64,000 nt of DNA, from positions 271,465-335,464 of the forward strand of contig CAYWUX010000001.1 of assembly GCA_964461525.1 (NCBI GenBank). The letters are read 5' to 3'. Below the pieces are notes generated by a model. The model was not told the origin of the DNA. It made no database searches and saw nothing but the letters and a program-made list of their open reading frames with translations. Positions 5,170-58,400 of the stretch are shown here, piece by piece. Numbering within the stretch: the first letter of the stretch is position 1; every line of letters starts with the position of its first letter. The stretch is from an uncultured Hyphomicrobiaceae bacterium (GTDB lineage: Bacteria > Pseudomonadota > Alphaproteobacteria > Rhizobiales > CAYWUX01). The translations under genes were made by a program, and so were the position numbers.

Positions 5170-5408
5170 GCTCAGCGCTGCAATCCAGAATCAGTTTTGT
5201 CGTCCCCCAAAAATTATCAAAATATTTTGCATTGAATTTGTGCTATCGTAATCCTTTGGAAACCAAATGCACTCACACTTTATTAAAGTGGATTGAAGTC
5301 GAACAACAATTCGTTTCCAAACGGATAAACCGCCGGTTGGGAACACTGAGTTTTTTCACCACGCCTCTCAATTTAACAGAATATTGCCCTAAAGAAGAAT
5401 ATCCTAAA

Positions 5409-5900
5409 ATGTCGACAGTACCAGCTAAACAAAATTCTAAGCCCAGACATACACCGTTAAAAATCTATCAGTCTCTTATGCGCGAGCATTTCAGGAAATT
5501 GGCCCGGGCCGGAGCCAAAAACAGTGTAGGTCATCACAAACATGAACTGGCCAAATGTTATTTGATTCAAATATCAGCTCTCGTCATGTTGCTGGAGCAA
5601 ATGCCACAGGCACCTGAAGAATTTGCACTTGATATCCTGGCATGGACGCCGGAACCAAGAGTCGAACGACAGATCGAGGCCGGTTCGGGAAAAAATAATG
5701 ATCACAACGGAATGTTCGCGTCAGTCATAGAAGATTTACAGGCCACCTCTGTAAGGCTGGTGGAAAATTTAAGACGTGCGATGGAAATTGGTGAGTTGGG
5801 CACGCTGTTTAAATTGTGCGAAGAGAAAGCTCCCATCCTTCGCAAACGCGTTGCGGAAATAGAGGATCGGATGATGCCAAATAGTATGGTTATTTATTGA
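5409..5900 (+). CDS. hypothetical protein with no recognisable domain, predicted helical
   Basis: ORF 5232..5900 opens at a TTG. The first in-frame ATG is at 5409 (MSTVPAKQNSKPRH). I recognise no motif. It is called a gene only on length and strand context. Confidence 0.5.
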   Translation: MSTVPAKQNSKPRHTPLKIYQSLMREHFRKLARAGAKNSVGHHKHELAKCYLIQISALVMLLEQMPQAPEEFALDILAWTPEPRVERQIEAGSGKNNDHNGMFASVIEDLQATSVRLVENLRRAMEIGELGTLFKLCEEKAPILRKRVAEIEDRMMPNSMVIY

Positions 5901-15066: not shown

Positions 15067-17763
15067 CTAGATCTTGCTGGCTATCGCGGATTGTGCAGCG
15101 GCCAACCTGGCCACAGGAACCCGATATGGCGAGCACGAAACATAGTCAAGGCCGACCTGGTGACAGAATTCAATGGATTTCGGGTCTCCCCCATGCTCAC
15201 CACAAATTCCCAGTTTCAAGTTTCCGTTTGTGCTTCGACCTCGTTTCACACCAATTTTCACCAGTTCCCCCACGCCCTCAACGTCAATTGAAATAAATGG
15301 GTCCGTATCGATCAATCCTTTTTCAACATATTCTGTGAGGAAACTTCCGGCGTCATCTCTGGAAATTCCAAGACCGGTTTGCGTTAAATCATTGGTGCCG
15401 AAAGAAAAGAAGTCCGCTGACTGCGCAATTTCATCCGCCTTAAGACAGGCTCTCGGAAGTTCGATCATCGTACCGATGGTATATTCAATTTTTGTACCGG
15501 TTTCGCTCTCCACCTGTTTCGCCACTTCGCGCACACGTCCGGCCAGAAAATCAAACTCAGGCCGGCCGATTATCAGAGGAATCATAATTTCGGGCTCCAC
15601 CGGCTCGCCTGTTTTTTTAGACATACTGACGGCAGCTTCCAGTATCGCCCTTGCCTGCATTTCGGTAATTTCCGGATATGTAATAGCGAGACGACATCCG
15701 CGATGACCGAGCATTGGATTGAACTCTTGAAGTTCCTGAATGCGATTATGGAGAGCCTTAGGTGTAACGCCGATGGCAGACGAAACATCTTCAATCTCCG
15801 CATCCCCGTGGGGCAGGAATTCATGCAGTGGTGGATCCAAAAGGCGAATTGTCACCGGCATGCCGGCCATAATTTCAAACAAAGCTTCAAAATCACTGCG
15901 CTGCATCGGAAGAAGCTTGGCCAATGCTTTGCGGCGGCCTTCCTCAGTTTCAGACAAAATCATTTGTCGAACAGCGAGTATTCTTTCTTCGTCAAAAAAC
16001 ATATGCTCTGTGCGGCAGAGACCTATACCTTCACAACCAAATTTTTTCGCCGTCGAAGCATCAACCGCTGTGTCGGCGTTGGCTCGCACACCGAGTACCC
16101 GGACTTTGTCTGCCCAGGCCATCAACTTGGCAAAGTCTCCCGACAATTCAGGCTGCTTCATTTTAACGCTACCCAGAATGACTTGCCCTGCGGTGCCATC
16201 GATTGTGATCAGATCGCCTTTTTTCAGGGTGTGAGTACCAGCCTTCATTGTCTCATCTTTGTAGTCGATTCGAATTGTTCCGGCCCCGGAAACGCATGGC
16301 CTGCCCATACCACGCGCGACCACCGCCGCGTGACTTGTCATGCCACCCCGGGTAGTCAAAATTCCAACCGCAGCATGCATACCATGAATATCTTCAGGAC
16401 TCGTCTCCACACGAACCAGAATGACATCCTTACCATTTGCTTTCATCGCCTCGGCTTCATCGGAATTAAATACAATTTCACCCGATGCAGCTCCTGGTGA
16501 GGCCGGCAATCCCGTCGCAATCACATTACGGTCGGCATTAGGATCAAGCGTGGGATGGAGTAGCTGGTTGAGCGCGGCCGGTTCAATGCGCATAACAGCC
16601 TGCTCCTGGGAAATTACCCCCTCTTCGGCCAGATCAATTGCAATTTTGAGGGCGGCTTCAACTGTCCTCTTTCCGGCCCTGGTCTGCAGCATCCACAAAT
16701 TACCGTTCTGGACGGTAAATTCGATATCCTGCATATCCTTGTAGCGGGCTTCGAGTTTCTCGCAAATCGTTTTGAACTCCGAAAAGACCTCCGGCATTAA
16801 AGCTTCAAGTGAGGGGAGTTCGTCTCCGGCCTGAATGCGCGCTTGTTCGGTTAAGCTCTGAGGCGTTCTGATACCGGCAACGACATCTTCTCCTTGCGCA
16901 TTTACCAAAAATTCTCCATAGAGCTTTTTCTCACCGGTGGAAGGGTTTCTGGTAAACGCAACTCCGGTCGCACTATTGTTACCCAGATTACCGAACACCA
17001 TCGCCTGAACGTTAACCGCCGTTCCCCAATGTGCTGGGATATCATGCAGTTTCCGATAAGTGATTGCACGAGCGTTCTGCCATGAGCCGAACACAGCGCT
17101 GATAGCCCCCCACAACTGCTTGTTGATATCCTGTGGAAAAGGCTCACCGAGTTCCTGCTCCACGCACTTTTTGTAGGACTCAACAATTCCGACCCAATCA
17201 TCCGCATCAAGTTCGGTATCATTGAATAATCCGGTCTCATTTTTAAATGATTGCAAAATGTCCTCGAACAAATGATGATCGACGCTCAGGCAAACATCTG
17301 AATACATCTGAATAAAGCGCCGATAGGAATCGTATGCAAATCTGCGATCGGACGATCGTTCGGCCAGCCCGTCAACTGTCTGATCATTGAGGCCCAGATT
17401 CAATACCGTGTCCATCATGCCCGGCATGGAAGCCGGCGCGCCGGAGCGGACGGATACGAGAAGCGGATTGTTCCGGTCGCCGAATTGAGCCCCGACAGCC
17501 TTGCCGACCTCCGCGACCGCCAGTTCCACTTGGTCAATCAGTCCTTCAGGTAACTTTCGGCCCAGGTCATAGTAAGCCGAACAGACCTCTGTCGTGATTG
17601 TGAACCCCGGGGGAACCGGCAACCCCAGATTTGCCATTTCAGCCAAATTGGCACCCTTGCCGCCTAACAGTTCCTTTAATTCGGCAGAACCATCAGCCAA
17701 TCCAGATCCGAATTTGTACACCCACTTGTGTTTAACATTGTCCGTTGCCAAAGCCTGGCTCAT
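15067..17763 (-). CDS. ppdK: pyruvate, phosphate dikinase
   Basis: 898 aa. Phosphohistidine loop GGMTSHAAVVARG and PEP-utilising C-terminal block GLCRTEHMF. Confidence 0.97.
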   Translation of the reverse strand: MSQALATDNVKHKWVYKFGSGLADGSAELKELLGGKGANLAEMANLGLPVPPGFTITTEVCSAYYDLGRKLPEGLIDQVELAVAEVGKAVGAQFGDRNNPLLVSVRSGAPASMPGMMDTVLNLGLNDQTVDGLAERSSDRRFAYDSYRRFIQMYSDVCLSVDHHLFEDILQSFKNETGLFNDTELDADDWVGIVESYKKCVEQELGEPFPQDINKQLWGAISAVFGSWQNARAITYRKLHDIPAHWGTAVNVQAMVFGNLGNNSATGVAFTRNPSTGEKKLYGEFLVNAQGEDVVAGIRTPQSLTEQARIQAGDELPSLEALMPEVFSEFKTICEKLEARYKDMQDIEFTVQNGNLWMLQTRAGKRTVEAALKIAIDLAEEGVISQEQAVMRIEPAALNQLLHPTLDPNADRNVIATGLPASPGAASGEIVFNSDEAEAMKANGKDVILVRVETSPEDIHGMHAAVGILTTRGGMTSHAAVVARGMGRPCVSGAGTIRIDYKDETMKAGTHTLKKGDLITIDGTAGQVILGSVKMKQPELSGDFAKLMAWADKVRVLGVRANADTAVDASTAKKFGCEGIGLCRTEHMFFDEERILAVRQMILSETEEGRRKALAKLLPMQRSDFEALFEIMAGMPVTIRLLDPPLHEFLPHGDAEIEDVSSAIGVTPKALHNRIQELQEFNPMLGHRGCRLAITYPEITEMQARAILEAAVSMSKKTGEPVEPEIMIPLIIGRPEFDFLAGRVREVAKQVESETGTKIEYTIGTMIELPRACLKADEIAQSADFFSFGTNDLTQTGLGISRDDAGSFLTEYVEKGLIDTDPFISIDVEGVGELVKIGVKRGRSTNGNLKLGICGEHGGDPKSIEFCHQVGLDYVSCSPYRVPVARLAAAQSAIASKI

Positions 17764-29762: not shown

Positions 29763-29908
29763 CCCAAATCCTCTTACTCCAGTAACTTTGGATAGAGCGT
29801 AGTTGCTGTTCCGTCAATGACCTGAGAGCGTTTTCCTCTATCGCGCAATGCCGGCAATCATGTTAGACTTCGCCAACCTCTGAAACGTATTTTTTGGAAA
29901 ATTTGCGT

Positions 29909-30787
29909 ATGAACGGGACTAGTCGAGCGGCAAGCTCTATACTTCAAATATATCTGGAAGCCGGCGTCGATGAAATCATAAGCGATGAGCCTGTCAACTG
30001 GTTTGACGTTGACGAAAAAACCAATTCAGCCGAGTTGGCACAGATGTCACAATTGAGTGGAACATCCAGGCAAACGCCGACTGATTGGTCTGGTACTGAT
30101 CAAAGACGCGAACCCGTCCGCTTGGAAAATAAACCCGCCGCGCCGCATCCGATCCCCGCTAAATCACCTCGACAACCGCCAATGGCTCCCTCCCAAGCTA
30201 ATTTTATCGCGCGAGAGTCTGCTCAGACATGTCAAAGTCTCGATGAGTTGGAGGCGGCAATCCGAAGCTTTGAGGGATGCGCGCTTAAAATGACGGCAAA
30301 ATCAACGTGCATTGCCCGGGGAAACCCACACGCCGAAATCATGCTGATTGGTGAGGCACCAGGCCGCGACGAGGATATTCAAGGCAGACCATTTGTTGGC
30401 CGGGCCGGTCAATTACTTGATAGAATGCTCGCCTCGATCAATCTCAGCGAGGAAAATGCCTACATCACAAATATTGTCTATTGGAGACCACCGGGCAATC
30501 GAACCCCTTCCGCCCACGAAGCTCAGTCCTGCCTGCCATTTACCGAACGTCAAATCGAGCTTGTCGCACCTCGAATTCTGGTTTTTCTGGGTGGCGCGGC
30601 CGCAAAACTGATGCTTGACAGTAGCCAGGGTATCATGAGGTTACGCGGGAAATGGCAAACCTATAATGTTGGTTCTCACCAATGTCAGGCCATTGCGACA
30701 CTGCACCCGGCATATCTGTTGAGGACACCCGCAGCAAAACGCCTTGCCTGGCATGATTTACTGTTGATCAAGGATCAACTCGACTAA
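29909..30787 (+). CDS. uracil-DNA glycosylase, family 4, with N-terminal extension
   Basis: ORF 29894..30787 opens at a TTG, and the first ATG is at 29909. Motif A reads GEAPGRDEDIQGRPFVGRAGQLLD, and HPAYLLR lies near the C-terminus. Confidence 0.88.
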   Translation: MNGTSRAASSILQIYLEAGVDEIISDEPVNWFDVDEKTNSAELAQMSQLSGTSRQTPTDWSGTDQRREPVRLENKPAAPHPIPAKSPRQPPMAPSQANFIARESAQTCQSLDELEAAIRSFEGCALKMTAKSTCIARGNPHAEIMLIGEAPGRDEDIQGRPFVGRAGQLLDRMLASINLSEENAYITNIVYWRPPGNRTPSAHEAQSCLPFTERQIELVAPRILVFLGGAAAKLMLDSSQGIMRLRGKWQTYNVGSHQCQAIATLHPAYLLRTPAAKRLAWHDLLLIKDQLD

Positions 30788-31951: not shown

Positions 31952-32488
31952 ATGTCCAGAATAGATGAAAATTTACCATTTATAGCCGTCAGGATTGCTG
32001 TACTGACGGTTTCCGATACCCGTACCGCCAAAGAAGATAAATCAGGTCGCATTCTCGGTGAAATGTTAACCGAGGCAGGTCACGAACTGGCAGAACATGC
32101 GGTTGTGAAGGATGACGTTCCTGCTATCCAGGCCCAGGTAAAGGCCTGGATCGAACATCCCGATGTCGATGTTATTATCACGACAGGTGGCACGGGGTTT
32201 ACCGGCCGTGATGTTACGCCTGAAGCCGTTCGCCCTCTTTTTGAAAAAGAAATCGACGGGTTCTCGGTTTTATTCCACCAGCTGAGTTACGACAAGGTGG
32301 GCACATCGACAATACAATCCCGCGCCTGCGGCGGTGTCTGCCGGGGGACATACATATTTTGTGTTCCCGGTTCCCCGGGAGCCTGCAGAGATGCCTGGCA
32401 CGGTATTTTGAAATTTCAGCTCGACTATCGCCACAGACCATGCAATTTCGTTGAAATTATGCCGCGCCTGGAGGAGCACAGGAATTAG
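31952..32488 (+). CDS. moaB: molybdenum cofactor biosynthesis protein B
   Basis: 178 aa. MoaB/Mog block [20 protein letters not shown]. Confidence 0.88.
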
Positions 32489-33128
32489 CTTTGCCTGTCC
32501 TGACCAGCACGAACCGTCCCTCAACTCCGGAAAGTCTGCGAAAGTCCGCCAGTTCATCAACATCATTGAGCGTTTCGCAGAATCCGACGTCAAAATTTTT
32601 GAGATTTTCAAGTGTGTCGTCGAGTGTTGTCGAACTTGACCAGTCTACATTGTCAAATATTCTGAGCAGGCGTGGCGCGCGCCTGAGGCCGATTAACCAG
32701 TAGCCACCATCTCCAGCAGGACCTATTACAGCGTCTTTTTGCCTCAATATTCGGAATGCCCGATCTACATGTGACGGAGTAATCTCGGGAATATCTGTTC
32801 CAATAATTATGATCGGACCCTTAAAGTCCAGATTAAAGATCCTCTGCATTCTGTGGCCGAGATCTCCCCGGCCCTGCGCAACCAGTTCGCCCCCGAAAAT
32901 CTTATCCCCGACGAACCTCCAGTTTCTCCGGTTAAGCGCTGAATCCGGGGACACGGCCAGTTTCGTAGTCCAGCGCCTGTCGAAAGTCAGCCGCCGGATG
33001 ATGTTTGATGCTGTTACCCTGAAAAATCTGGTGGCGGCTACCTCACCAATATCTTTCGCCAAACGGGTCTTAACGGCTCCCGCAACCGGATATTTGACCA
33101 TGATAACCAGTGTGCAGATTGTTCTCAT
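32457..33128 (-). CDS. DUF2064 / TIGR04282-like nucleotidyl- or glycosyl-transferase
   Basis: ORF 32457..33173. I prefer the ATG at 33128 because [24 protein letters not shown] matches the usual N-terminus of the family. Also contains [11 protein letters not shown]. Confidence 0.75.
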
Positions 33129-33179
33129 GTGCGTATTTTTATTGAGCGGATCCGTTTTCTTCCAAGCCGGCAAACCTGA

Positions 33180-33872
33180 CTAGCCATAAATGCGATCAAT
33201 ATATCGGGGCGGCACTCGAAGATAATACAAGGCCAGGCAAGAAAGATTACGCATCATGCGCATGACGTACCCTTCTTTTTTATATCGCTTGGCACTTGTG
33301 ATTGCCCGGCTTTGAAACATCACCAGTCTTTTGCGCCCCAAACGCCTGACGATATCGACATCCTCCATAAGTGGCAGCGTTTTAAATCCTCCGAGTTCCC
33401 TGTAAAGCGACTTGGGCAGCAATAACCCCTGGTCTCCATAAGGCAGCGCCAATACGAAACATCTCACATTGACAACAAACTCCAGAAATCGGGGCATATA
33501 GCCGAAATCATCGAGCGAGAATTTGAAGGCCGCGGCAGTTTCATTTAATTCACCATTTTCAACACGTTCTATGAAACGTGCCGCTTCCTTTTCCCAGCCA
33601 TTTTCCAGAATAGTGTCCGCGTGCAGAAACAGAAGCCACTCACCACGGGCAAAATCGGCTCCGACCGCAAGCTGCGAGCCCCGTCCCTTGGGCGACTGAA
33701 TATAGTGAGCCCCGCCCTGCTCCGCGAGATCCGCGGCGTCACAGGTTGTTGACCCCCCGTCCACCACTATAACCTCTTTTATCAGGCCAATGACGACAGC
33801 CGGTACCAATGCGGCCATCACACCGGCGAGGCGCTTATCAGGATTGAACGTCGGAATAACAATCGAAATCAT
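33180..33872 (-). CDS. family-2 glycosyltransferase, TIGR04283-like
   Basis: 230 aa. Contains MISIVIPTFN, VVDGGSTT, LFLHADT, YGDQG and PLMEDVDIVRR. Confidence 0.8.
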   Translation of the reverse strand: MISIVIPTFNPDKRLAGVMAALVPAVVIGLIKEVIVVDGGSTTCDAADLAEQGGAHYIQSPKGRGSQLAVGADFARGEWLLFLHADTILENGWEKEAARFIERVENGELNETAAAFKFSLDDFGYMPRFLEFVVNVRCFVLALPYGDQGLLLPKSLYRELGGFKTLPLMEDVDIVRRLGRKRLVMFQSRAITSAKRYKKEGYVMRMMRNLSCLALYYLRVPPRYIDRIYG

Positions 33873-33920
33873 GGGTCAGGTTTTTACCATGGAGCGATAA
33901 AATTCAACAAGAGGGTGAAT

Positions 33921-33951
33921 TTGACTTCCCTTAAATGTTCATGTTATGTTC
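33921..33951 (+). promoter_or_regulatory. candidate sigma70-type promoter overlapped by an alphaproteobacterial LexA (SOS) box
   Basis: TTGACT at 33921-33926, an 18-nt spacer, then TATGTT at 33945-33950. GTTC-atgttat-GTTC at 33937-33951 is an exact GTTC-N7-GTTC direct repeat. It lies 123 nt upstream of the radical SAM start and 65 nt from the divergent GT2 start. Confidence 0.6.
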
Positions 33952-34073
33952 TAATCAGCTTTTAACCGTAGATATCTGATGAGATATCAGATGTTCGACC
34001 GTATCAAGGATCTGAAGAAAGTTATTCTATTTACAGCAGCAACCCAAAATGGAACAGGTTTTTCAACAAAACA

Positions 34074-35150
34074 ATGGCAGATCTCCTTCCCCCGAACTTT
34101 CGTCGTGGACGCGGCAGCCAATCCAACAATTCCGGTCGTTACGAAACGTTGACCCGCGACTGGTTTGATGATGGCTGGTCAACCCTTGAGGAAATAGATA
34201 CCCTGCGGAACTCCGTCAGGCTAGAGCAGGCAAAAAACATTATATCGACCAACAAGTCGCCCGATATCAGTTTCGATCAGTCAATCAATCCTTATCGGGG
34301 CTGTGAACATGGCTGCATTTACTGTTATGCCCGCCCGACGCACGCTTATCTCGGACTATCGCCCGGTCTCGATTTTGAGTCCAAATTGGTGGCCAAGCCC
34401 AATGCGCCGGAAAGATTGCGATGCCAGTTGGCCGCACCGAATTATCATCCTAAAACTATAGCGCTCGGGACCAATACAGATCCCTACCAGCCGATTGAAC
34501 GACAATTTGGCATTACTCGTCAACTCCTTGAAATCATGGAGGAAACCAATCATCCCGTTGTCATCGTAACAAAATCGTCTCTGGTCCTGCGGGACCTGGA
34601 TATTCTGGAGAGGCTGGCTTCCCGCGGTTTGGTCAAAGTGGCAATATCCATTACCTCGCTAAACCACAAACTATCGAGAAAAATGGAACCAAGGGCCAGC
34701 ACACCTAAAAAGCGCGTTGTGGCGCTTAGAAAGTTGGAACAAAGGGGTATACCAACGGCTGTTATGGTCGCACCTATTATTCCCGCTTTAAATGAGTTCG
34801 AAATAGAAAATATTCTAACCAGGGTAGCAAATCAGGGCACGCGGGAGGCCGGTTATGTCATTCTGCGATTGCCCCTGGAAGTAAAAGACCTTTTCCACGA
34901 ATGGCTGACAGCGGAGTTTCCCAACAGGGCGAAGCGTGTTTTATCCCTGGTTTACAACATGAGAGACGGGAAGGCCTATAAATCTGAATGGGGGGAGAGA
35001 ATGCGTGGCCGCGGACCATACGCAGATCAGATTGCGCGAAGATTTGAGATGGCCATGAAGCGGTTGAACATGAACAACCGCCAACTTCCGCTTCGCACGG
35101 ATTTGTTCCGGCCACAGGAGCGTTCGGGACAACAGTTACCCCTGCTCTAG
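34074..35150 (+). CDS. PA0069-family radical SAM protein (COG1533, SplB-like)
   Basis: 358 aa. Contains RGRGSQSNNSGRYE, NPYRGCEHGCIYCYARPTHAYLGLSPGLDFE (CxxxCxxC cluster) and TNTDPYQPIE. Confidence 0.88.
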   Translation: MADLLPPNFRRGRGSQSNNSGRYETLTRDWFDDGWSTLEEIDTLRNSVRLEQAKNIISTNKSPDISFDQSINPYRGCEHGCIYCYARPTHAYLGLSPGLDFESKLVAKPNAPERLRCQLAAPNYHPKTIALGTNTDPYQPIERQFGITRQLLEIMEETNHPVVIVTKSSLVLRDLDILERLASRGLVKVAISITSLNHKLSRKMEPRASTPKKRVVALRKLEQRGIPTAVMVAPIIPALNEFEIENILTRVANQGTREAGYVILRLPLEVKDLFHEWLTAEFPNRAKRVLSLVYNMRDGKAYKSEWGERMRGRGPYADQIARRFEMAMKRLNMNNRQLPLRTDLFRPQERSGQQLPLL

Positions 35151-35229
35151 CTGGATCTGCCTAGGATTCCTCCATCAGCTTTGGATTTTTAAAATATTGC
35201 AGGGGTTATGGAGTTGACAGGCATTCATT

Positions 35230-35907
35230 ATGCCATTCAGTCTTACACCATCTTCCAAACTGATTCGGTTCAATACAAATCCAATGAACCAACTGCGACC
35301 CTCATTTGATGAAGAAACAAAATTAGCCGGGAGTTTCGGTTCTCGTATTGCTGGCATTGACGAGGCCGGACGCGGACCGTGGGCTGGTCCGGTGGTGGCT
35401 GCCGCCGTAATTCTGGATCCCGATAATATTCCGGATGGGTTGAACGATTCAAAACAAATAAAAGCCGGCGACCGGGACCGTCTTTTCGATCAGATTTTGA
35501 ATGGTTCTGACGTTGGTATTGGAATAGGGCACGTCGGACAGATTGACAGAGATAACATCCTGCAGACGACGCTTTGGACGATGGGCCAAGCGGTTGCAGA
35601 TCTCACCGCTGCCCCGGACGCCGCATTAGTGGATGGTAACAAATGCCCCGAATTGAACTGCCCGGTACAGGCCCTCGTCAAGGGAGACGGCCTGTCGCTA
35701 TCAGTCGCTGCGGCCTCAATTATTGCGAAGGTCACCCGCGACCGGATCATGGTGGATCTGGCCCGGAACCATCCGGGCTATGGATGGGAACGCAATAAGG
35801 GGTACGGTACGGCCGAACATCATCGGGCGATATACCGCCTTGGTGTTACAGCTCATCACCGCCGCTCGTTCAAGCCTGTCCGCGCAGTGCTCAACAGACA
35901 AACATAA
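35230..35907 (+). CDS. rnhB: ribonuclease HII
   Basis: 225 aa. Contains GIDEAGRGPWAGPVVAAAV and DSKQ. An alternative ATG lies at 35284. Confidence 0.92.
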   Translation: MPFSLTPSSKLIRFNTNPMNQLRPSFDEETKLAGSFGSRIAGIDEAGRGPWAGPVVAAAVILDPDNIPDGLNDSKQIKAGDRDRLFDQILNGSDVGIGIGHVGQIDRDNILQTTLWTMGQAVADLTAAPDAALVDGNKCPELNCPVQALVKGDGLSLSVAAASIIAKVTRDRIMVDLARNHPGYGWERNKGYGTAEHHRAIYRLGVTAHHRRSFKPVRAVLNRQT

Positions 35908-36151: not shown

Positions 36152-37285
<1,134 letters not shown>

Positions 37286-37357: not shown

Positions 37358-38431
37358 TCAATTGTGTTCCATAGCGTGGGCTATGACTTTCCGCATGACG
37401 CTTGGCAGCGCCTGATCTTTAAGTTCTGATCTGTGCACCCAAATACAGTGTTCCGGCTTTGCCCATAAATTCAACGTTGTCTCCAACGGTACGACGGCCC
37501 GGTAGACCAACAATTCCAGCCTGAAATGCGTGAATGTGTGGTGGACCTGCCCAGGCACAAGCCACCAATCGCCGTGAACCGGAGCAATCTGCGACAATTC
37601 ATCTAACGAGGGTGGAATATCGAGCCAGTCCGAGGACGGAATTTCCATCATTCCCCCCAGCAAACCCTCCCGGGGACGGGTTCGCAATAACACACAACCA
37701 TCTTCCCGCAACGAAAAAAACGCCGCGCCACATCTGAGAGGGCGCTCGCCTCTGGGGGCTCTAGCTGGCAGCTGTCCCTGAATTCCCTGTTCATAGGCCT
37801 GACAATGAGACTTGATCGGGCAAAGCATACAGGATGGTCTTTTGGGAGAACAGACAGTCGCACCCAGATCCATTATGGCCTGGGCATAATCTCCGGGCCG
37901 GAATTGCGGCGTCAGGGTTTCTGCCCGTTGCTTTAGTTCTGCTTTTGCCTGCGGCAAGGGTGTTTTTACCGCAAACAGCCTGCTGATGACCCGTTCAACA
38001 TTTCCGTCCACGACCGTTGCCGGCACATCAAATGCGATAGCGGCAATAGCAGCAGCCGTATAAGGCCCGATCCCCGGCAGCTTCAAAAGTTCCTCTTCCT
38101 GGGATGGAAACCGGCCCTTAAATTCGGAGACGACCTGTCGGGCACATTTGTGCAGATTTCTGGCGCGTGAATAATAACCTAGGCCGGCCCAATTTCTCAG
38201 AACGTCTTCCAGCGATGCCGCGGCCAGCTTTTCCACTGTCGGCCATTTTGTGATGAATTTCTCGAAGTAAGTTGTAACTGATTTTACGGTTGTCTGCTGC
38301 AACATAACCTCTGAAAGCCAGACTTTATAAGGATCAGCAGCGATACCGGGAGCATATCTCCAAGGCAGATCCCGTCTGGCCCGATCATACCAACGGGTTA
38401 ACTGTTCTGATAAATCAATGCTTTGTGTCAT
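37358..38431 (-). CDS. mutY: A/G-specific adenine glycosylase
   Basis: ORF 37358..38461 opens at a GTG, and the ATG at 38431 gives MTQSIDLSEQLTRWYDRARRDLPWR. It has an HhH-GPD region, the Fe-S loop CSPKRPSCMLCPIKSHC and a C-terminal NUDIX-like domain. Confidence 0.93.
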   Translation of the reverse strand: MTQSIDLSEQLTRWYDRARRDLPWRYAPGIAADPYKVWLSEVMLQQTTVKSVTTYFEKFITKWPTVEKLAAASLEDVLRNWAGLGYYSRARNLHKCARQVVSEFKGRFPSQEEELLKLPGIGPYTAAAIAAIAFDVPATVVDGNVERVISRLFAVKTPLPQAKAELKQRAETLTPQFRPGDYAQAIMDLGATVCSPKRPSCMLCPIKSHCQAYEQGIQGQLPARAPRGERPLRCGAAFFSLREDGCVLLRTRPREGLLGGMMEIPSSDWLDIPPSLDELSQIAPVHGDWWLVPGQVHHTFTHFRLELLVYRAVVPLETTLNLWAKPEHCIWVHRSELKDQALPSVMRKVIAHAMEHN

Positions 38432-38605
38432 TTCAACAACAGATTGGATCGCGTGTTTCACGAATTTAGTCCCAATTTCCTGCGAATCAATAATATGATG
38501 CTATTCTCTTTTTGGGTTGGATAGCGAATCCAAGTACCGAGTTCCCACAACAGATCTTTAGATTCGGGTCAAAAACTGAGGCCCCGCCAGGAAGGACAGC
38601 TCGGT

Positions 38606-39181
38606 ATGTCATATATATCAGACCATGGTTCAAGGCCTGCTCACCCATCTAGAGTTTCCAGCAAACCAACTTTCAGAACGGTTGGCTCCCTGTTACCGAA
38701 ACTGACCAAACCTGTATTCGAAAAATACGGTTTTTCCATTACGTCAATCATTACCGAATGGACAGTGATTGTTGGTCAGGATTTGGCGAATTTCACCCAG
38801 CCAGAGAAACTGAAGTGGAATAGGCAAAAGGCTGATGCGCACGGAGAAAATTTTAATTCCTCGAATTTGACTGGCAAATCGGGAGTTTTGGACGGTGCGA
38901 CTCTGGTATTAAGAGTAGACGGGCCTCGTGCCATTGAAGTCCAGTTTCAGTCCGAGCAAATCATTGAACGCATTAACTGTTTTTTCGGTTACAAAGCCGT
39001 AACCGAGATAAGAATCCTTCAGGCCCCATTGAGCAAAAACGAGAATTCTAAGCAGTTCCCACCCCCTCTTCGCCCGGCGTCGGGAGTTACAGGTCTTAAG
39101 GAAATCCGGGATAAGCACCTTCGTCTCGCCCTCGCTCGCATGGCCAGCGGCGTCAAAAGGGAGCAAACGGCTCGAAACTGA
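38606..39181 (+). CDS. DUF721 (DciA-like) protein
   Basis: 191 aa. Contains IITEWTVIVGQDLANFTQPEKL, ATLVLRVDGPRAIEVQFQSEQIIERINCFFGYKAVTEIRILQ, the typical DUF721 pattern. Confidence 0.75.
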   Translation: MSYISDHGSRPAHPSRVSSKPTFRTVGSLLPKLTKPVFEKYGFSITSIITEWTVIVGQDLANFTQPEKLKWNRQKADAHGENFNSSNLTGKSGVLDGATLVLRVDGPRAIEVQFQSEQIIERINCFFGYKAVTEIRILQAPLSKNENSKQFPPPLRPASGVTGLKEIRDKHLRLALARMASGVKREQTARN

Positions 39182-49550: not shown

Positions 49551-50210
49551 TTAACTTAGTTTTTCCAATGATTTGTCGAACGATACGAAAACCTTGAAGT
49601 CCTGCATTTGAGCACCTTCGGGTATATCAAATGTTACGCGACGAACCATGGAAAAAAAGCCGGTCGAATTGTTCGGCTCTATAATAACCGGAACAGTTAG
49701 CTTTTCTTCTTTCAGTTTACCACGGGACTTTGCGGTTACGGTCAGAACCACGGGCAGGTTGTATTGATCCGACTTGGCCTTAGGCCCTAATATCAATCTG
49801 CCAGCAAAACCATACTTTACGGTAATGCGGCCGGGAGCCAATTCGCATTCGCGAGCGATCTTTGTAATTTCGCCGCGATATTTAATATTTAGAGGATTCT
49901 TATTGAAATCATCTGAATATTGCGTGAAGTGCCGGCCTTTTGACCAAATAACGAATTTTGGACACCCCTTTTCGGCAGTCATCAATTGCGACAGATCTGT
50001 GTTTTGTTTTGCCGCCGCCAGCAGTGACCCTTCTGAGACGGAGGGCGCCCATTCACTTGCCGTCTGACTGTCTTTCTTTTTCGCGCCTAATAGGTCAGAA
50101 CCGAAACCCGACGTTACATTAGACATAGAGCAGCCCTGCAGAAGAAAAGCCAATCCTGAATAGAAGATTATATTACGCAATAGCAGTGATTTTTGATGCC
50201 AGCCTCTCAC
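49551..50210 (-). CDS. hypothetical lipoprotein
   Basis: The 329-aa ORF runs up to 50540 across the ispH start. The GTG at 50210 gives MRGWHQKSLLLRNIIFYSGLAFLLQGC (lipobox LQGC). No domain recognised. The start is an inference. Confidence 0.55.
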   Translation of the reverse strand: MRGWHQKSLLLRNIIFYSGLAFLLQGCSMSNVTSGFGSDLLGAKKKDSQTASEWAPSVSEGSLLAAAKQNTDLSQLMTAEKGCPKFVIWSKGRHFTQYSDDFNKNPLNIKYRGEITKIARECELAPGRITVKYGFAGRLILGPKAKSDQYNLPVVLTVTAKSRGKLKEEKLTVPVIIEPNNSTGFFSMVRRVTFDIPEGAQMQDFKVFVSFDKSLEKLS

Positions 50211-50424
50211 AATCGCCCCAATTCGGTACTTGACAAGCCCTCCCCAAGACCGCCATCTGATGTGTCTATTCAATTGCACACTTTGAAACCAGCGCGCGAA
50301 TTTGCAGTTCGTCCTAATTAGGCATAAATAAAGGCCAGAATAGGTCGCAACAAGCTCAATGTTTTTGATTTTAATCCCAGTATGCATATTTAACCCATAT
50401 GTCATTCTCATGGCGAGAACTTGA

Positions 50425-51429
50425 ATGGACAAGATACTGAAAAATAAAGAAAATCCCTTTTCGCGGGACGGTACTAAAAGCCTACTGACTATTAAGCTTT
50501 GTGCCCCTCGCGGCTTTTGTGCCGGGGTCGACCGCGCCATTCAAATTGTAGAGTTAGCTTTACAGCGATTCGGGCCCCCAGTTTATGTTCGGCACGAAAT
50601 TGTACACAATAGATTTGTCGTAAAGTCGTTGCGAAACCAGGGAGCCGTTTTTGTAGAAGAATTGGATGAAATTCCCGACACAGATGCTCCCGTTATATTT
50701 TCGGCTCATGGTGTCCCCAAATCGGTACCTGCTGCAGCCCGCGAACGCAACTTCTTCTTTCTGGATGCAACATGTCCACTTGTTTCTAAAGTACACATTG
50801 AGGCAGACCGGCTTTACAAGAAAGGATACGAGATTATATTGATCGGTCATGCCGGACACCCTGAAGTCATAGGAACGATGGGGCAGCTGCCGGCCGGGGC
50901 GGTCAGGCTGATTGAATCGGCGGAAGAAGCCCGCTCGTTCGAACCCAGGCACCCCGATAGAATTGCCTATATCACGCAAACCACGCTTTCTGTTGATGAC
51001 ACGCAGGAGATTGTCGATATTCTCAAATCACGATTTCCGGAAATAGTGGGGCCGCGCAAGGATGATATCTGTTACGCCACCACCAACAGGCAGGCGGCCG
51101 TTAAAGCAATAGCCAGTGAATGCGATGCATTAATCGTCGTTGGTGCCCCCAACAGCTCAAATTCGAAAAGACTTGTTGAGGTCGGTGAGCGGGCCGGTTG
51201 CCAATTTTCGCAACTGCTGCAGTGTGCTGACGAAATTGATTGGAAACTGTTTGAAAATATTTCGGTTGTTGGCCTCACCGCCAGCGCGTCCGCACCGGAA
51301 ATTCTCGTTGAAGAAATCATCGACGCCTTTTCGGAACGCTTTGACGTGACCGTTGACACAGTGGTTACAGCCGATGAAAAAATTTCTTTCAAACTCCCGA
51401 CAGAACTTCGCGATATGATAACCGAATAA
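50425..51429 (+). CDS. ispH: 4-hydroxy-3-methylbut-2-enyl diphosphate reductase
   Basis: 334 aa. Contains [14 protein letters not shown] and SAHGVPKSV, with conserved Cys in [11 protein letters not shown]. Confidence 0.95.
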
Positions 51430-55413: not shown

Positions 55414-58400
55414 TCAGCCGGCACCAGATTGAGCTTTCGTGGGATTTGGCAAATTCAATAAAGGACGTCCGGTGCTTGCCCCTGGACGGGTATCCGGGCT
55501 CTTGAAGAGAGGTTTTCCAATTGGCTTCCCGGTCTTTTGACTATCGGATACTGGTGATTCCTGTAAATTTTTGTTACTTCGCCTGAGAAGCGACAATTGA
55601 CGTTTTTCCTGTTTCTTGTTGGCTTTGGCAATTGCTGATAGCAGAGACATTACCTCTTTGTCTGTCATGGGTTCGCCATACAGGTAGCCTTGCCCCATTT
55701 GACACTTTATGGATCTCAAATATGAAGCATCCTCTACTGACTCAATGCCCTGCGCAATGACGACCTTGTCAAGTTCATGAAGCATTGCGACCATTGAACG
55801 CACGACCGCCAAATCTTTTTGGCTGGAACCAATCTGCTGAATAAAAGAGTTGTCAATTTTTACGGATTCAAAAGGAAACCTGCTCAAATAGCTTATAGAC
55901 GAAAATCCTGTTCCGAAGTCATCCAGTATGAGTGAAGCACCGGCCCCCCTCAGCCATTCCAGAATTTCAGCAGACTGCTCTGGATTTTCCAGAACAAGCG
56001 ATTCCTTTACTTCTAGGCGAAGTGTTCCCTTGGGAATGGCATCACGTCTTAGAATTAATCGAATATCCTGGACAAGGTCATATCGAAAGACTTCACCACC
56101 CGTGATATTCACGGTTACAAACAACGGGTTTTCTCTTCCCGGGAATGCCTTGTGCCAACGAGCGACCTGTCTTGTTGCCTGGTCCAGTACAAATGTACCT
56201 AGATCCCTTAGGTAGGCTGTATCTTCAGAGATCCGATTAAAATCTTCCGGCATCAGTATGCCAAAACTTGGATGATTCCACCTCACCAACGTCTCGAATC
56301 CAACAACTTCTTCATCCTCCAGATCGATGATCGGTTGATAAAAAATTTGCAACTGACGGCGATCGATCGCTCGTTTGAGATCACTTTCAAAGTTGGCGCG
56401 ATTGTCCTTATCACTTCTCATTTCCGGCCTGAATATTTCCACGCGGTCTGCGCCGGACCGTTTCGCAGCATACATGGCTAATTCAGCTTCTCGGAGAACA
56501 TCGGCCTGGGTGGGCTGCGAACCGTCATAAACGGCAATTCCGATGCTGCTTGTAAGGATGATTTCTTTACCGCTAAATTTCATCGGGCTGCGCAATGACC
56601 GTCTGGCACGTTCAGCAAACATGGCGATTTGCCGAGGTTCGGTTTCGGTAACCAGAAGGATACCAAACTGATCCCCCCCTATCCTTGCGATGGTGTCCAA
56701 AGGATTCAAATGGCGAGCCAGCCTGCGCGCCACGGTCAAGAGCATACTGTCACCAACCGCAAGGCCCATACTTGTATTGACATTCTTGAACCGGTCAATA
56801 TCGATAAACAGGACCGTAGGTCGGTTCGCGCCTTCTTCATTGGATCGCGTAATTGCTGTTCCCAGACGATCCAGCAATAATTCTCGATTGGGCATTCCTG
56901 TCAAGCTGTCATGAACAGCATCATGCAGTAGTCGCTCATGAGCCCGTTTCGAATTCGTGACATCGCGCATCAGTCCAATGCATTTGAGGGATCTATATTG
57001 ATTGCTAGGCACGGAATGAGCCCTGAGCTCGAACCATAAATAACTGCTATCAGACCGCCTTATTCTGAAATCCAGATTAAATTCGCCGCCGTTTTGCTCC
57101 TGCAAGGTCCACAGCAGAATCCGAAATCTTTCCTGGTCGGCTGGATGTAAGTGGATAAGAAAGTCATCGACCCGGCAATTCAATGACCCCGGTGCAAGCC
57201 TCAACGCCAATTCAACATCTTCACTTACACTGATTTCATCGCGCCGGGCATTCCATTCAAATACCGCAGCGTTGGCGCCTTCGATAGCAAGCGATCTTTG
57301 CTGCAATTGCCCTGGAAGGCCTCCCCCATACATCGGCTCGAAAGAATGGAATGCATACTGGGTTACAGTAAAGCCAAGTAGAATGACTATTAAGACAAGA
57401 CCGGAAATAACTCCCGCAACGGCTATATCACCCGAAAGCTGGCCAATAATTGTCACCGAAGCGCCAAAAATCCATACCAAAAACAGCAGCCAGCTCGGCA
57501 CCAGGGCCAAGGCCCGATCCTGCCCGCGAACAGACAAATAAACAATAAGCAGTGCGCCAACAACACTAATAACCAAAAAAGATACCCTGGCGAAACCAGC
57601 CGCCAGGACCGGATCAAGTATGGCTAATATAATCAGGGAAAGTTGCGCAATGTACCAGCCGAGAAATGTCAGCCGAATCCATCCATGCCACAATGACAGT
57701 CTGAGAAACGTATAGAGAAACAGTACAAAGTTGGCGGCAATAGCCGACTCTGCCGCTGCCCGATAGATGGCATTATTGTCGGCAACGAGCTGGAAAAGTT
57801 TATGCCAAAATCCAAAGTCGACGCACAAATAAGCCACAACACTCCAGGCAATCAATGCAGCGGACGGAAAGATTGCCCTGTGATTGGCTACAAAAATAGC
57901 CGTCAGAAAAACCGCAAGCAGGCCGGTCACGCCCAGTAAAATACCCTTGAAAAGCGTAAAGTCCCGAGCCCGTTTTTCGAACGCTTGAGGTTGCCATACA
58001 TAAATCCGCGGGAAATTGCTGGAGTTTATCTCGGCAATGTATGTCACAGTGGCTCTTGGTGCGAGCTCGATTCTGAATATATCCACACTGTCATTTTCAA
58101 TACGTTCCGGGCGGAAACCGAGTGAAGGCGTAATCTGCGATATATGTCTTGAGTCAAGCGTCGGCCAGAATACCCCGGAACCGATCATGCTGTATCGTTC
58201 AGCTGTAATCCAACGTTCTATTTTTGATTCAGTCGGATTGTTGAGGGCAAACACAACCCAGTTCGGATTGGTTCCGGCATTGAGAGCCGTGATTTCCATG
58301 CGGCCCGCAATACCGTCTATTCCCGGCGCCGTTTCAACCTGCAAACGGTCACCGCGCCCTTCATAAAATTCTCCCAGATGCGTTATCTCTATCTGTTCCT

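What the first reader, a model, noticed from the sequence alone, without database searches (positions are those of the whole stretch)
33921..33951. Exact alphaproteobacterial SOS box on the promoter of a PA0069-family radical SAM gene
GTTCatgttatGTTC (33937-33951) is a perfect GTTC-N7-GTTC direct repeat, the operator form described for LexA in Rhodobacter, Rhizobium and Caulobacter. It overlaps the spacer and -10 of a plausible promoter (TTGACT-N18-TATGTT). That is the geometry expected for repression.

The downstream gene is a COG1533/SplB-like radical SAM of unknown substrate. From memory (to be verified), the namesake PA0069 belongs to the P. aeruginosa LexA regulon. If so, damage-inducibility would be conserved across classes despite different operators.

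I found no second perfect box in the other intergenic regions I read. A given 8-specified-base motif is expected about twice by chance in 64 kb counting both strands, so position and context are what make this one credible.
Basis: partly seen in the sequence, partly recalled or inferred. Interest (0 to 1): 0.55.

Follow-up and report, generated by a model that had tools for sequence, protein, structure and literature searches.

The report
LexA SOS box before radical-SAM gene
A real, strongly conserved binding site for the DNA-damage repressor LexA sits on the promoter of a radical-SAM "repair-like" gene, but this regulatory link has been predicted in print for alphaproteobacteria since 2012, so it is a sound annotation, not a discovery.

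Summary
GTTCATGTTATGTTC lies at 33937-33951 (+), 122 nt before the start codon of a PA0069-family radical SAM gene (34074-35150). It overlaps a promoter-like TTGACT-N18-TATGTT.

The bare 8-base pattern is not above chance: 2 matches found, 1.99 expected. The extended site is. A matrix built from 79 published LexA sites of canonical SOS genes in other alphaproteobacteria scores it at 24.9 bits. The chance expectation for that score in the window is 2e-4, and the next best site scores 14.5 bits.

The site is also conserved. 76 of 80 orthologous loci carry a perfect GTTC-N7-GTTC on the coding strand upstream of the same gene.

The best explanation is a LexA operator that represses this gene until DNA damage occurs, possibly together with the downstream rnhB.

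It is not new. Sanchez-Alberola et al. 2012 predicted LexA control of this "splB" gene in alpha- and betaproteobacteria. Related genes are SOS-regulated in P. aeruginosa and M. tuberculosis, and are reported or predicted as such in Streptomyces, Bacteroidetes and Balneolaeota.

LexA binding, damage induction and the boxes on this genome's own recA and lexA could not be tested. The enzyme's substrate remains unknown.

The parts
33937..33951 (+). LexA operator core: two GTTC half-sites in direct repeat with a 7-nt spacer (GTTCATGTTATGTTC)
   Evidence: Sequence read and pattern match. A perfect box lies at the orthologous position, on the coding strand, in 76 of 80 related loci.
33933..33955 (+). 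Extended 23-nt LexA site AAATGTTCATGTTATGTTCTAAT, with T at -1 and a T-rich 3' half of the spacer
   Evidence: It scores 24.9 bits with a matrix built from 79 sites of canonical SOS genes (PMC3323433 Additional file 4). The chance expectation in the window is 2.2e-4. Its 18-mer ATGTTCATGTTATGTTCT is identical to the site listed in what appears to be the imuA column (SMc03790) for S. meliloti.
33921..33926 (+). Predicted -35 element TTGACT
   Evidence: Found by the consensus scan. Comparative support: an upstream TTGAC occurs only where the box lacks an internal TTG, in 5 of 16 such boxes against 0 of 61 others, Fisher p = 2e-4. It is predicted; no transcription start site is known.
33945..33950 (+). 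Predicted -10 element TATGTT, lying inside the spacer and second half-site of the operator
   Evidence: 18-nt spacer and TG before the hexamer. Predicted only.
33952..34073 (+). Leader between the operator and the start codon (122 nt), containing a tandem 12-mer at 33970-33993
   Evidence: No start codon is possible upstream of 34074 in this frame. The fold is not unusual, z = -0.8. No Rfam family matches. Repeat found.
34074..35150 (+). PA0069-family radical SAM gene (358 aa, CX3CX2C at C77/C81/C84), the regulated gene
   Evidence: NF033668 scores 532 bits against a cutoff of 360. Pfam PF04055 matches. The three cysteines are invariant. The closest solved fold is spore photoproduct lyase, TM 0.53-0.55 at 17-19% identity.
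35230..35907 (+). rnhB (RNase HII), a possible co-transcribed partner; inferred, not shown
   Evidence: The gap to the radical SAM gene is 79 nt, with no terminator-like or promoter-like site on the + strand. rnhB follows the radical SAM gene on the same strand in 66 of 80 loci, and the projected gap is at most 150 nt in 34 of those 66.
33180..33872 (-). Divergent TIGR04283-family glycosyltransferase gene whose start codon lies 64 nt from the box. It may be affected by the same operator, but this is not supported as the main target.
   Evidence: Family assignment. The adjacency occurs in 50 of 80 loci. The box persists in 28 of the 30 loci that lack this gene.

Best explanation
The 15-mer is a LexA operator of the alphaproteobacterial direct-repeat type, sitting on the promoter of a PA0069-family radical SAM gene. 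In undamaged cells a LexA dimer bound to the two GTTC half-sites would cover the spacer and -10 of the TTGACT-N18-TATGTT promoter and block RNA polymerase. After DNA damage, RecA-stimulated self-cleavage of LexA would free the promoter. The radical SAM gene would then be transcribed, and possibly rnhB behind it.

Shown here:
- the site and its extended match to LexA sites of canonical SOS genes;
- its conservation and fixed orientation upstream of orthologues;
- the gene family.

Inferred:
- LexA binding in this organism;
- the transcription start site;
- repression and damage induction;
- the extent of the operon.

The enzyme has a fold like spore photoproduct lyase, so a radical-based DNA repair reaction is the most likely role. 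Its substrate is unknown.
For: - **Independent matrix.** A matrix from 79 non-redundant LexA sites of lexA, recA, uvrA, ssb, dinB, ruvC, uvrD, imuA and similar genes in 12 alphaproteobacterial genomes scores the window site at 24.9 bits. The leave-one-out median for those canonical sites is 19.7 and the 75th percentile is 22.6. The next best site in the window scores 14.5 bits and lies in a coding sequence. The chance expectation for 24.9 bits or more in the window is 2.2e-4.
- **Identical published site.** 18 nt of the window site are identical to the site listed for S. meliloti SMc03790, which appears to sit in the imuA column.
- **Conservation.** 76 of 80 orthologous loci from different species have a perfect box on the coding strand within 350 nt upstream. 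Six perfect boxes occur elsewhere in 512 kb of those loci.
- **Conservation, independent matrix.** 76 of 80 score at least 18 bits and 79 of 80 at least 15 bits, with no hit of 18 bits or more elsewhere in the loci. L061 and L077 have one-mismatch boxes.
- **Target gene.** The box follows the radical SAM gene even where the divergent glycosyltransferase gene is absent, in 28 of 30 such loci.
- **Promoter overlap.** The box overlaps the predicted promoter. In 61 of 76 orthologues the box itself carries the TTG of a -35 element, and in 48 of those 61 the best-matching -10 hexamer lies 17 nt downstream. Operator-promoter overlap is therefore the rule for this gene.
- **Literature.** LexA regulation of this "splB" gene was predicted for alpha- and betaproteobacteria (PMC3323433). 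PA0069 is listed as an SOS gene of P. aeruginosa. A LexA ChIP-seq peak with RecA-dependent induction lies at Rv2578c in M. tuberculosis (PMC3381160). COG1533 radical SAM genes are reported or predicted as SOS-regulated in several phyla.
Against: - There is no experimental evidence for this organism.
- No lexA, recA, uvrA or imuA gene was found among the 35 window ORFs scanned. It is therefore not shown that this genome encodes an alpha-type LexA, or that its canonical SOS genes carry the same box.
- The promoter is only a 9-of-12 consensus match, and about one such match is expected by chance in that region.
- The window box lacks the internal TTG that serves as the -35 in most orthologues, so its promoter geometry differs from the majority and rests on weaker comparative support (5 of 16).
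- Many of the 79 reference sites are themselves computational predictions.
Confidence: 0.87

Rival explanations
1. Chance occurrence: the 8-base pattern is expected about twice in 64 kb and this copy merely happens to fall in an intergenic region.
For: 2 matches are observed against 1.99 expected, and 63 of 100 shuffles give at least 2. The other copy, inside ppdK, is evidently chance.
Against: The extended site scores 24.9 bits, with 2.2e-4 expected by chance in the window. A box lies at the orthologous position in 76 of 80 species, against 6 perfect boxes in 512 kb of flanking DNA.
Confidence: 0.01
2. The conserved element is a promoter feature or the site of a regulator other than LexA, and its resemblance to the SOS box is coincidental. 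An example would be a -35 element plus T-rich spacer peculiar to this gene.
For: In 61 of 76 orthologues the box contains the presumptive -35 TTG, so part of the conservation could reflect promoter function. No binding data exist.
Against: Both GTTC tetramers are conserved at 11-nt spacing, which a -35 element does not need; because the 76 aligned sites were chosen for having both GTTCs, the non-circular measure is that 76 of 80 loci have a perfect box. A matrix built only from other SOS genes recognises 76 of 80 of these promoters at 18 bits or more and nothing else in the loci. The window box lacks the TTG yet keeps both half-sites. The same gene family carries class-specific LexA boxes in betaproteobacteria and mycobacteria.
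Confidence: 0.05
3. The operator is bidirectional. It also, or mainly, controls the divergent TIGR04283/TIGR04282 glycosyltransferase-like operon, whose start codon lies 64 nt from the box.
For: The intergenic region is compact at 201 nt. The glycosyltransferase gene lies divergent to the radical SAM gene in 50 of 80 loci. In the 12 loci I compared by hand from the coordinates, its start is 52-87 nt from the box.
Against: The box persists in 28 of 30 loci without that gene, and its orientation is always that of the radical SAM gene. No promoter-like site was found on the minus strand. The adjacency is confined to some lineages, which fits inherited synteny.
Confidence: 0.12
4. Relic site: the organism has lost LexA or carries a LexA of changed specificity, and the box is an unselected remnant.
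For: No lexA gene can be seen in the window. The lineage is isolated: the closest radical SAM homologues from other organisms are about 66% identical.
Against: An unselected 23-nt site would not stay at 24.9 bits over the divergence implied by 66% protein identity. 76 of 80 related species across several families keep a site of at least 18 bits.
Confidence: 0.03

Closest known systems
Predicted LexA regulation of 'splB' in alpha- and betaproteobacteria (Sanchez-Alberola et al. 2012, BMC Genomics 13:58, PMC3323433)
   Same: The same gene family (SplB-like radical SAM, COG1533), the same GTTC-N7-GTTC operator in the alphaproteobacteria, and the same inference of SOS control.
   Different: That study covered about a dozen genomes with multiple chromosomes. 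This is a different, uncharacterised lineage. Here the conservation is measured over 80 species, and the operator overlaps the -10 and spacer, whereas in most orthologues it overlaps the -35. The alphaproteobacterial splB column of their table was truncated in the held copy, so their exact sites could not be compared.
P. aeruginosa PA0069, a member of the 15-gene LexA regulon (Cirz et al. 2006, as cited in bioRxiv 10.1101/2022.03.14.484287)
   Same: It is the namesake of the protein family the window gene belongs to (NF033668), and it is listed as an SOS response gene.
   Different: The gammaproteobacterial LexA recognises a palindromic CTGT-N8-ACAG operator, not a direct repeat. The primary paper was not readable here, so this rests on a secondary citation.
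M. tuberculosis Rv2578c (LexA ChIP-seq peak, RecA-dependent induction; Smollett et al. 2012, PMC3381160)
   Same: It is a related SplB-like radical SAM gene under experimentally shown LexA control.
   Different: It belongs to a sister family. The window protein scores 217 bits on NF038135, whose cutoff is 430. The operator is of the Gram-positive type.
Predicted LexA site listed for S. meliloti SMc03790 (apparently the imuA column)
   Same: 18 consecutive bases, ATGTTCATGTTATGTTCT, are identical to the window site.
   Different: It precedes a different gene in a different organism. It is listed as a predicted site in the supplement, and the column assignment in the flattened table is not certain.
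Spore photoproduct lyase (SplB; PDB 4FHC, 4K9R)
   Same: It is the best structural match for the predicted model: Foldseek E = 2e-8, TM 0.53-0.55 over about 306 columns, roughly a thousand-fold better E-value than the next radical SAM enzyme. Both have the CX3CX2C radical SAM cluster.
   Different: Sequence identity is only 17-19%. There is no sequence-level match to any PDB chain or to an SPL model in NCBIfam. The organism does not appear to be a spore-former, which I infer from its being an alphaproteobacterium. The substrate is unknown, and the 'photolyase' label is an annotation habit, not a result.

Membership tests
Alphaproteobacterial LexA operator (SOS box) | Two GTTC half-sites in direct repeat separated by 7 nt | tested here: met
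   GTTCATGTTATGTTC at 33937-33951.
Alphaproteobacterial LexA operator (SOS box) | Extended sequence resembles LexA sites at canonical SOS genes (T before the first G, T-rich 3' half of the spacer) | tested here: met
   24.9 bits with a matrix of 79 sites from lexA, recA, uvrA, ssb, dinB, ruvC, uvrD and imuA promoters. This is above the 75th percentile (22.6) of those sites.
Alphaproteobacterial LexA operator (SOS box) | Lies in a promoter region and overlaps core promoter elements | tested here: inconclusive
   It is intergenic, 122 nt before the start codon, and overlaps the predicted TTGACT-N18-TATGTT promoter, with comparative support. No transcription start site is known, and the promoter match alone is at chance level.
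Alphaproteobacterial LexA operator (SOS box) | Conserved upstream of orthologous genes | tested here: met
   76 of 80 loci have a perfect box and 79 of 80 score at least 15 bits. No hit of 18 bits or more occurs elsewhere in those loci.
Alphaproteobacterial LexA operator (SOS box) | The same genome encodes an alpha-type LexA, and its lexA, recA and uvrA carry the same box | not testable with these tools
   No canonical SOS gene was found among the 35 window ORFs scanned.
Alphaproteobacterial LexA operator (SOS box) | Bound by LexA, and the downstream gene is derepressed by DNA damage in a RecA-dependent way | not testable with these tools
   Needs EMSA or footprinting and expression measurements.
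PA0069-family radical SAM protein (NF033668) | Full-length match above the curated cutoff | tested here: met
   532 bits against a cutoff of 360, covering residues 11-358 on model positions 1-348.
PA0069-family radical SAM protein (NF033668) | CX3CX2C motif for the radical SAM [4Fe-4S] cluster | tested here: met
   C77-EHG-C81-IY-C84. All three cysteines are invariant in 14 homologues. PF04055 matches.
Spore photoproduct lyase (SplB proper) | Sequence-level membership in the SPL family | tested here: not met
   No SPL model appears among the NCBIfam hits at E <= 1e-3. No PDB chain is matched by sequence at E <= 0.01.
Spore photoproduct lyase (SplB proper) | SPL-like three-dimensional fold | tested here: met
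   The top six Foldseek hits are SPL structures, E = 2e-8 to 1.5e-7, TM 0.47-0.55. The model is of moderate quality, with mean pLDDT 71.
Spore photoproduct lyase (SplB proper) | Catalytic hydrogen-donor cysteine and tyrosines of SPL, and activity on 5-thyminyl-5,6-dihydrothymine | not tested
   No residue-level structural alignment was made. Activity needs biochemistry.

The most novel reading that the evidence does not exclude
The LexA-controlled unit may be larger than the radical SAM gene. rnhB (RNase HII) may be co-transcribed from the same promoter, which would make ribonucleotide excision damage-inducible in this lineage. That could serve to clean up after SOS-induced error-prone polymerases. 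The compact divergent region may also put the TIGR04283/TIGR04282 glycosyltransferase-like pair under the same operator. Neither is excluded. rnhB follows on the same strand in 66 of 80 loci, often within 150 nt, and the window has no terminator-like or promoter-like site in the 79-nt gap.
Probability: 0.3. Interest if true: 0.4.

Novelty: new member of a known kind. Interest (0 to 1): 0.2.

Why it matters
The result gives a confident regulatory annotation for one gene in an uncharacterised alphaproteobacterium.

It also adds breadth to a published prediction. The LexA box upstream of the PA0069/SplB-like radical SAM gene is close to universal across Hyphomicrobiales and neighbouring orders, at 76-79 of 80 species. 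That makes this gene one of the most reliably SOS-linked genes in the group.

The open question is the enzyme, not the regulation. A radical SAM protein with a fold like spore photoproduct lyase is kept under LexA control in several phyla, yet it still has no known substrate. This locus adds no direct lead on that.

Tried and rejected
- **Canonical SOS genes in the window.** I annotated 35 ORFs with Pfam or NCBIfam. None is lexA, recA, uvrA, ssb or imuA, so the same-genome operator test could not be run.
- **Rest of the source genome.** The GTDB scan returned only relatives at 65% identity or less. The exact-protein look-up returned three short contigs with an identical intergenic sequence, which add no information.
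- **Closest homologue.** P0002 has no DNA held, and its 559-aa sequence carries an internal duplication, so it could not be used for footprinting.
- **Circular matrix.** A matrix trained on the orthologous promoters gives 24.4 bits. I did not rely on it and replaced it with the independent matrix.
- **Leader RNA element.** There is no Rfam hit and the fold z-score is -0.8, so I rejected this idea.
- **Alternative promoter in the window.** I tested the geometry seen in most orthologues, with the -35 inside the box. The hexamers would be ATGTTA and AACCGT, 5 of 12 matches, so I rejected it in favour of the upstream TTGACT.
- **UDG gene under LexA control.** No site lies upstream of the family-4 UDG gene at 29894.
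- **Primary papers.** Erill et al. 2004 and da Rocha et al. 2008 are not held. No paper characterising PA0069 biochemically was found.

Full report
**1. The observation**

GTTCATGTTATGTTC occupies 33937-33951 on the + strand, TTGACT occupies 33921-33926, and TATGTT occupies 33945-33950. The consensus scan reports this one promoter-like site in 33700-34300: TTGACT-N18-TATGTT, 9 of 12 matches, with TG before the -10. About one such site is expected there by chance.

The site lies in a 201-nt divergent intergenic region:
- 64 nt from the start codon of a minus-strand gene (33180-33872);
- 122 nt before the ATG of a plus-strand gene (34074-35150). No earlier start is possible in that frame.

The bare pattern GTTC-N7-GTTC is not above chance. 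It occurs twice in the window against 1.99 expected. The second copy, at 17602-17616 (-), lies inside the pyruvate,phosphate dikinase coding sequence.

**2. The genes**

| Coordinates | Strand | Identification | Evidence |
|---|---|---|---|
| 34074-35150 | + | PA0069-family radical SAM protein, NF033668 at 532 bits (cutoff 360) | |
| 33180-33872 | - | TIGR04283-family glycosyltransferase | |
| 32457-33173 | - | TIGR04282-family partner | |
| 35230-35907 | + | rnhB (RNase HII) | |
| 36155-37285 | + | CcrM-type DNA methyltransferase | |
| 37358-38461 | - | probably mutY, judged by eye from its translation and by tblastn synteny; not run against Pfam or NCBIfam | |

The radical SAM protein has the CX3CX2C motif at C77/C81/C84, and all three cysteines are invariant in 14 homologues.

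The order glycosyltransferase / radical SAM / rnhB / ccrM / mutY recurs in Hyphomicrobiales and related genomes. That places the window in the Alphaproteobacteria. The lineage is isolated, because the closest radical SAM homologues from other organisms are about 66% identical.

**3. Is it a LexA site? An independent motif test**

Additional file 4 of Sanchez-Alberola et al. 2012 (PMC3323433) lists LexA sites upstream of lexA, recA, uvrA, ssb, dinB, ruvC, uvrD, imuA and other canonical SOS genes. It covers 12 alphaproteobacterial genomes. From these I built a 23-column matrix of 79 non-redundant sites. None of them comes from the radical SAM gene.

Results:
- The window site AAATGTTCATGTTATGTTCTAAT (33933-33955) scores 24.9 bits.
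- Leave-one-out scores of the canonical sites have a median of 19.7 and a 75th percentile of 22.6.
- The next best site anywhere in the window, on either strand, scores 14.5 bits and lies inside a GGDEF/EAL coding sequence.
- The exact score distribution gives 2.2e-4 expected sites of 24.9 bits or more in the window.

Eighteen consecutive bases of the window site are identical to the site listed for S. meliloti SMc03790, which appears to sit in the imuA column of the flattened table.

**4. Conservation upstream of orthologues**

A scan of one genome per species returned 80 orthologous loci. They include Bradyrhizobium, Rhizobium, Agrobacterium, Mesorhizobium, Hyphomicrobium, Methylocystis, Aurantimonas, Tepidicaulis, a Dongiaceae MAG and others.

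| Measure | Result |
|---|---|
| Perfect GTTC-N7-GTTC on the coding strand within 350 nt upstream | 76 of 80 loci |
| Perfect boxes in the remaining 512 kb of those loci | 6 |
| Upstream site of at least 18 bits (independent matrix) | 76 of 80 |
| Upstream site of at least 15 bits | 79 of 80 |
| Hits of at least 18 bits elsewhere in the loci | 0 |

Of the four loci without a perfect box, L061 and L077 have GTAC-N7-GTTC. L050 has three half-sites, one degenerate. L010 has no credible site.

The box follows the radical SAM gene. It is present in 28 of the 30 loci that lack the divergent glycosyltransferase gene, and it always has the orientation of the radical SAM gene.

**5. Promoter geometry**

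In the 76 aligned sites the consensus is wwT-GTTC-TTG-n-TTT-GTTC-t, followed by a conserved TA at +27/+28. This means that in 61 of 76 orthologues the operator itself contains the TTG of a -35 element. In 48 of those 61 the best-matching -10 hexamer lies 17 nt downstream. This is an operator laid over the -35.

The window box reads ATG where most orthologues read TTG. The corresponding hexamers there are poor: ATGTTA and AACCGT.

An exact TTGAC at -30 to -10 occurs in 5 of the 16 boxes that lack the internal TTG, counting the window. It occurs in none of the 61 that have it (Fisher p = 2e-4). Either geometry is what repression requires. No transcription start site is known, so the promoter remains a prediction.

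**6. Mechanism**

The best explanation is classical SOS control. LexA bound to the direct repeat blocks the promoter. RecA-stimulated self-cleavage of LexA after DNA damage releases it.

- Shown here: the site, its match to canonical sites, its conservation, and the gene family.
- Inferred: binding, repression and induction in this organism.

The transcription unit may include rnhB. The gap is 79 nt and holds no terminator-like or promoter-like site. rnhB follows on the same strand in 66 of 80 loci, and the projected gap is at most 150 nt in 34 of those 66. This is a possibility, not a result.

The divergent glycosyltransferase gene could also be affected, since its start lies 64 nt from the box. 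The comparative data do not point to it as the main target.

**7. The enzyme**

No solved structure matches by sequence, and no SPL model in NCBIfam matches.

An AlphaFold2 model (mean pLDDT 71, pTM 0.75) finds spore photoproduct lyase as its best structural matches. The top six hits have E = 2e-8 to 1.5e-7 and TM 0.47-0.55 at 17-19% identity. The next radical SAM enzyme is about a thousand-fold weaker by E-value.

"SplB-like" is therefore fair as a description of the fold. The protein is not a member of the SPL family, and its substrate is unknown. I found no paper that characterises PA0069 biochemically.

**8. Comparison with what is known**

The regulatory link is already in the literature:
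- Sanchez-Alberola et al. 2012 reported apparent LexA regulation of splB in both alpha- and betaproteobacteria, and stressed that two divergent operators precede the same gene.
- PA0069 is cited as one of the 15 SOS genes of P. aeruginosa.
- Rv2578c has a LexA ChIP-seq peak and RecA-dependent induction in M. tuberculosis.
- A radical SAM protein is listed in the S. venezuelae LexA regulon.
- A radical SAM protein belongs to the core SOS regulon of Gram-positive bacteria and to the Balneolaeota regulon.

**9. What could not be done**

- No canonical SOS gene was found among the 35 window ORFs scanned, and the rest of the genome could not be reached. Whether this genome's lexA and recA carry the same box is therefore untested.
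- The primary papers on the alphaproteobacterial regulons were not held.
- The alphaproteobacterial splB column of the 2012 supplement was truncated.

**10. Verdict**

This is a real and very probably functional LexA operator on a PA0069-family radical SAM gene. It is a further instance of a published regulatory link. What this analysis adds is the breadth of conservation and the two alternative operator-promoter geometries. Interest is low, at 0.2.

Noticed in passing
window 33970-33993: The radical SAM leader contains a tandem 12-mer, AGATATCTGATG / AGATATCAGATG. It can also fold into an 11-bp hairpin. It is not conserved in orthologous leaders, and the leader as a whole does not fold unusually well (z = -0.8).
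   Followed up: partly
window 32457-33872 (-): A TIGR04283/TIGR04282 pair, which NCBIfam names 'arsenosugar biosynthesis glycosyltransferase' families, lies divergent to the radical SAM gene. The glycosyltransferase adjacency recurs in 50 of 80 orthologous loci. In the 12 loci compared by hand, its start is 52-87 nt from the LexA box. Whether this is functional coupling or inherited synteny is unknown.
   Followed up: partly
window 35151-35907 (+); L001-L080: rnhB follows the radical SAM gene on the same strand in 66 of 80 loci, with a projected gap of at most 150 nt in 34 of them. The window gap is 79 nt and has no terminator-like or promoter-like site. RNase HII could therefore be co-transcribed under LexA control.
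   Followed up: partly
L001-L080, positions 0 to +33 relative to the box start: In 61 of 76 orthologues the LexA box contains the TTG of the -35 element, and the best-matching -10 hexamer lies 17 nt downstream. Where the TTG is missing, an exact TTGAC appears 10-30 nt upstream in 5 of 16 cases, against 0 of 61 otherwise. The promoter appears to have moved relative to a fixed operator.
   Followed up: yes
window 29894-30787 (+): A family-4 uracil-DNA glycosylase with an N-terminal extension of about 110 aa lies 3 kb upstream. [quoted passage not shown]
   Followed up: partly
window 17602-17616 (-): The only other perfect GTTC-N7-GTTC in the window, GTTCCCCCGGGGTTC, lies inside the pyruvate,phosphate dikinase coding sequence. 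It does not appear among the top-scoring sites of either LexA matrix, so it is a chance match.
   Followed up: yes
L050 (about 206 nt before the match start) and L010: L050 (Filomicrobium MAG) has three half-sites at 11-nt spacing, GTTC-N7-GTAT-N7-GTTC, where other loci have a simple box. L010 (Hyphomicrobiaceae MAG) has no credible box on the coding strand, which may reflect loss of LexA control in that lineage.
   Followed up: partly
protein P0002 (JGI 3300048101, no DNA held): The closest non-identical homologue is 559 aa long. It contains an internal duplication of roughly the last 150 residues of the radical SAM protein, plus an N-terminal read-through. This is either an assembly or gene-calling artefact or a real tandem duplication.
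   Followed up: no
window 38606-39181 (+), 5232-5900 (+), 49551-50540 (-): Three ORFs of 191, 222 and 329 aa have no family match (the first against NCBIfam, the other two against Pfam) at E <= 1e-5. They may be lineage-specific genes or non-coding ORFs.
   Followed up: no
window 58211-58233 (+) and 36187-36209 (-): These are the second- and third-best matches to the LexA matrix, at 14.5 and 13.4 bits. They lie inside the GGDEF/EAL gene and inside the 5' end of ccrM. Both have degenerate half-sites and are probably not functional.
   Followed up: partly
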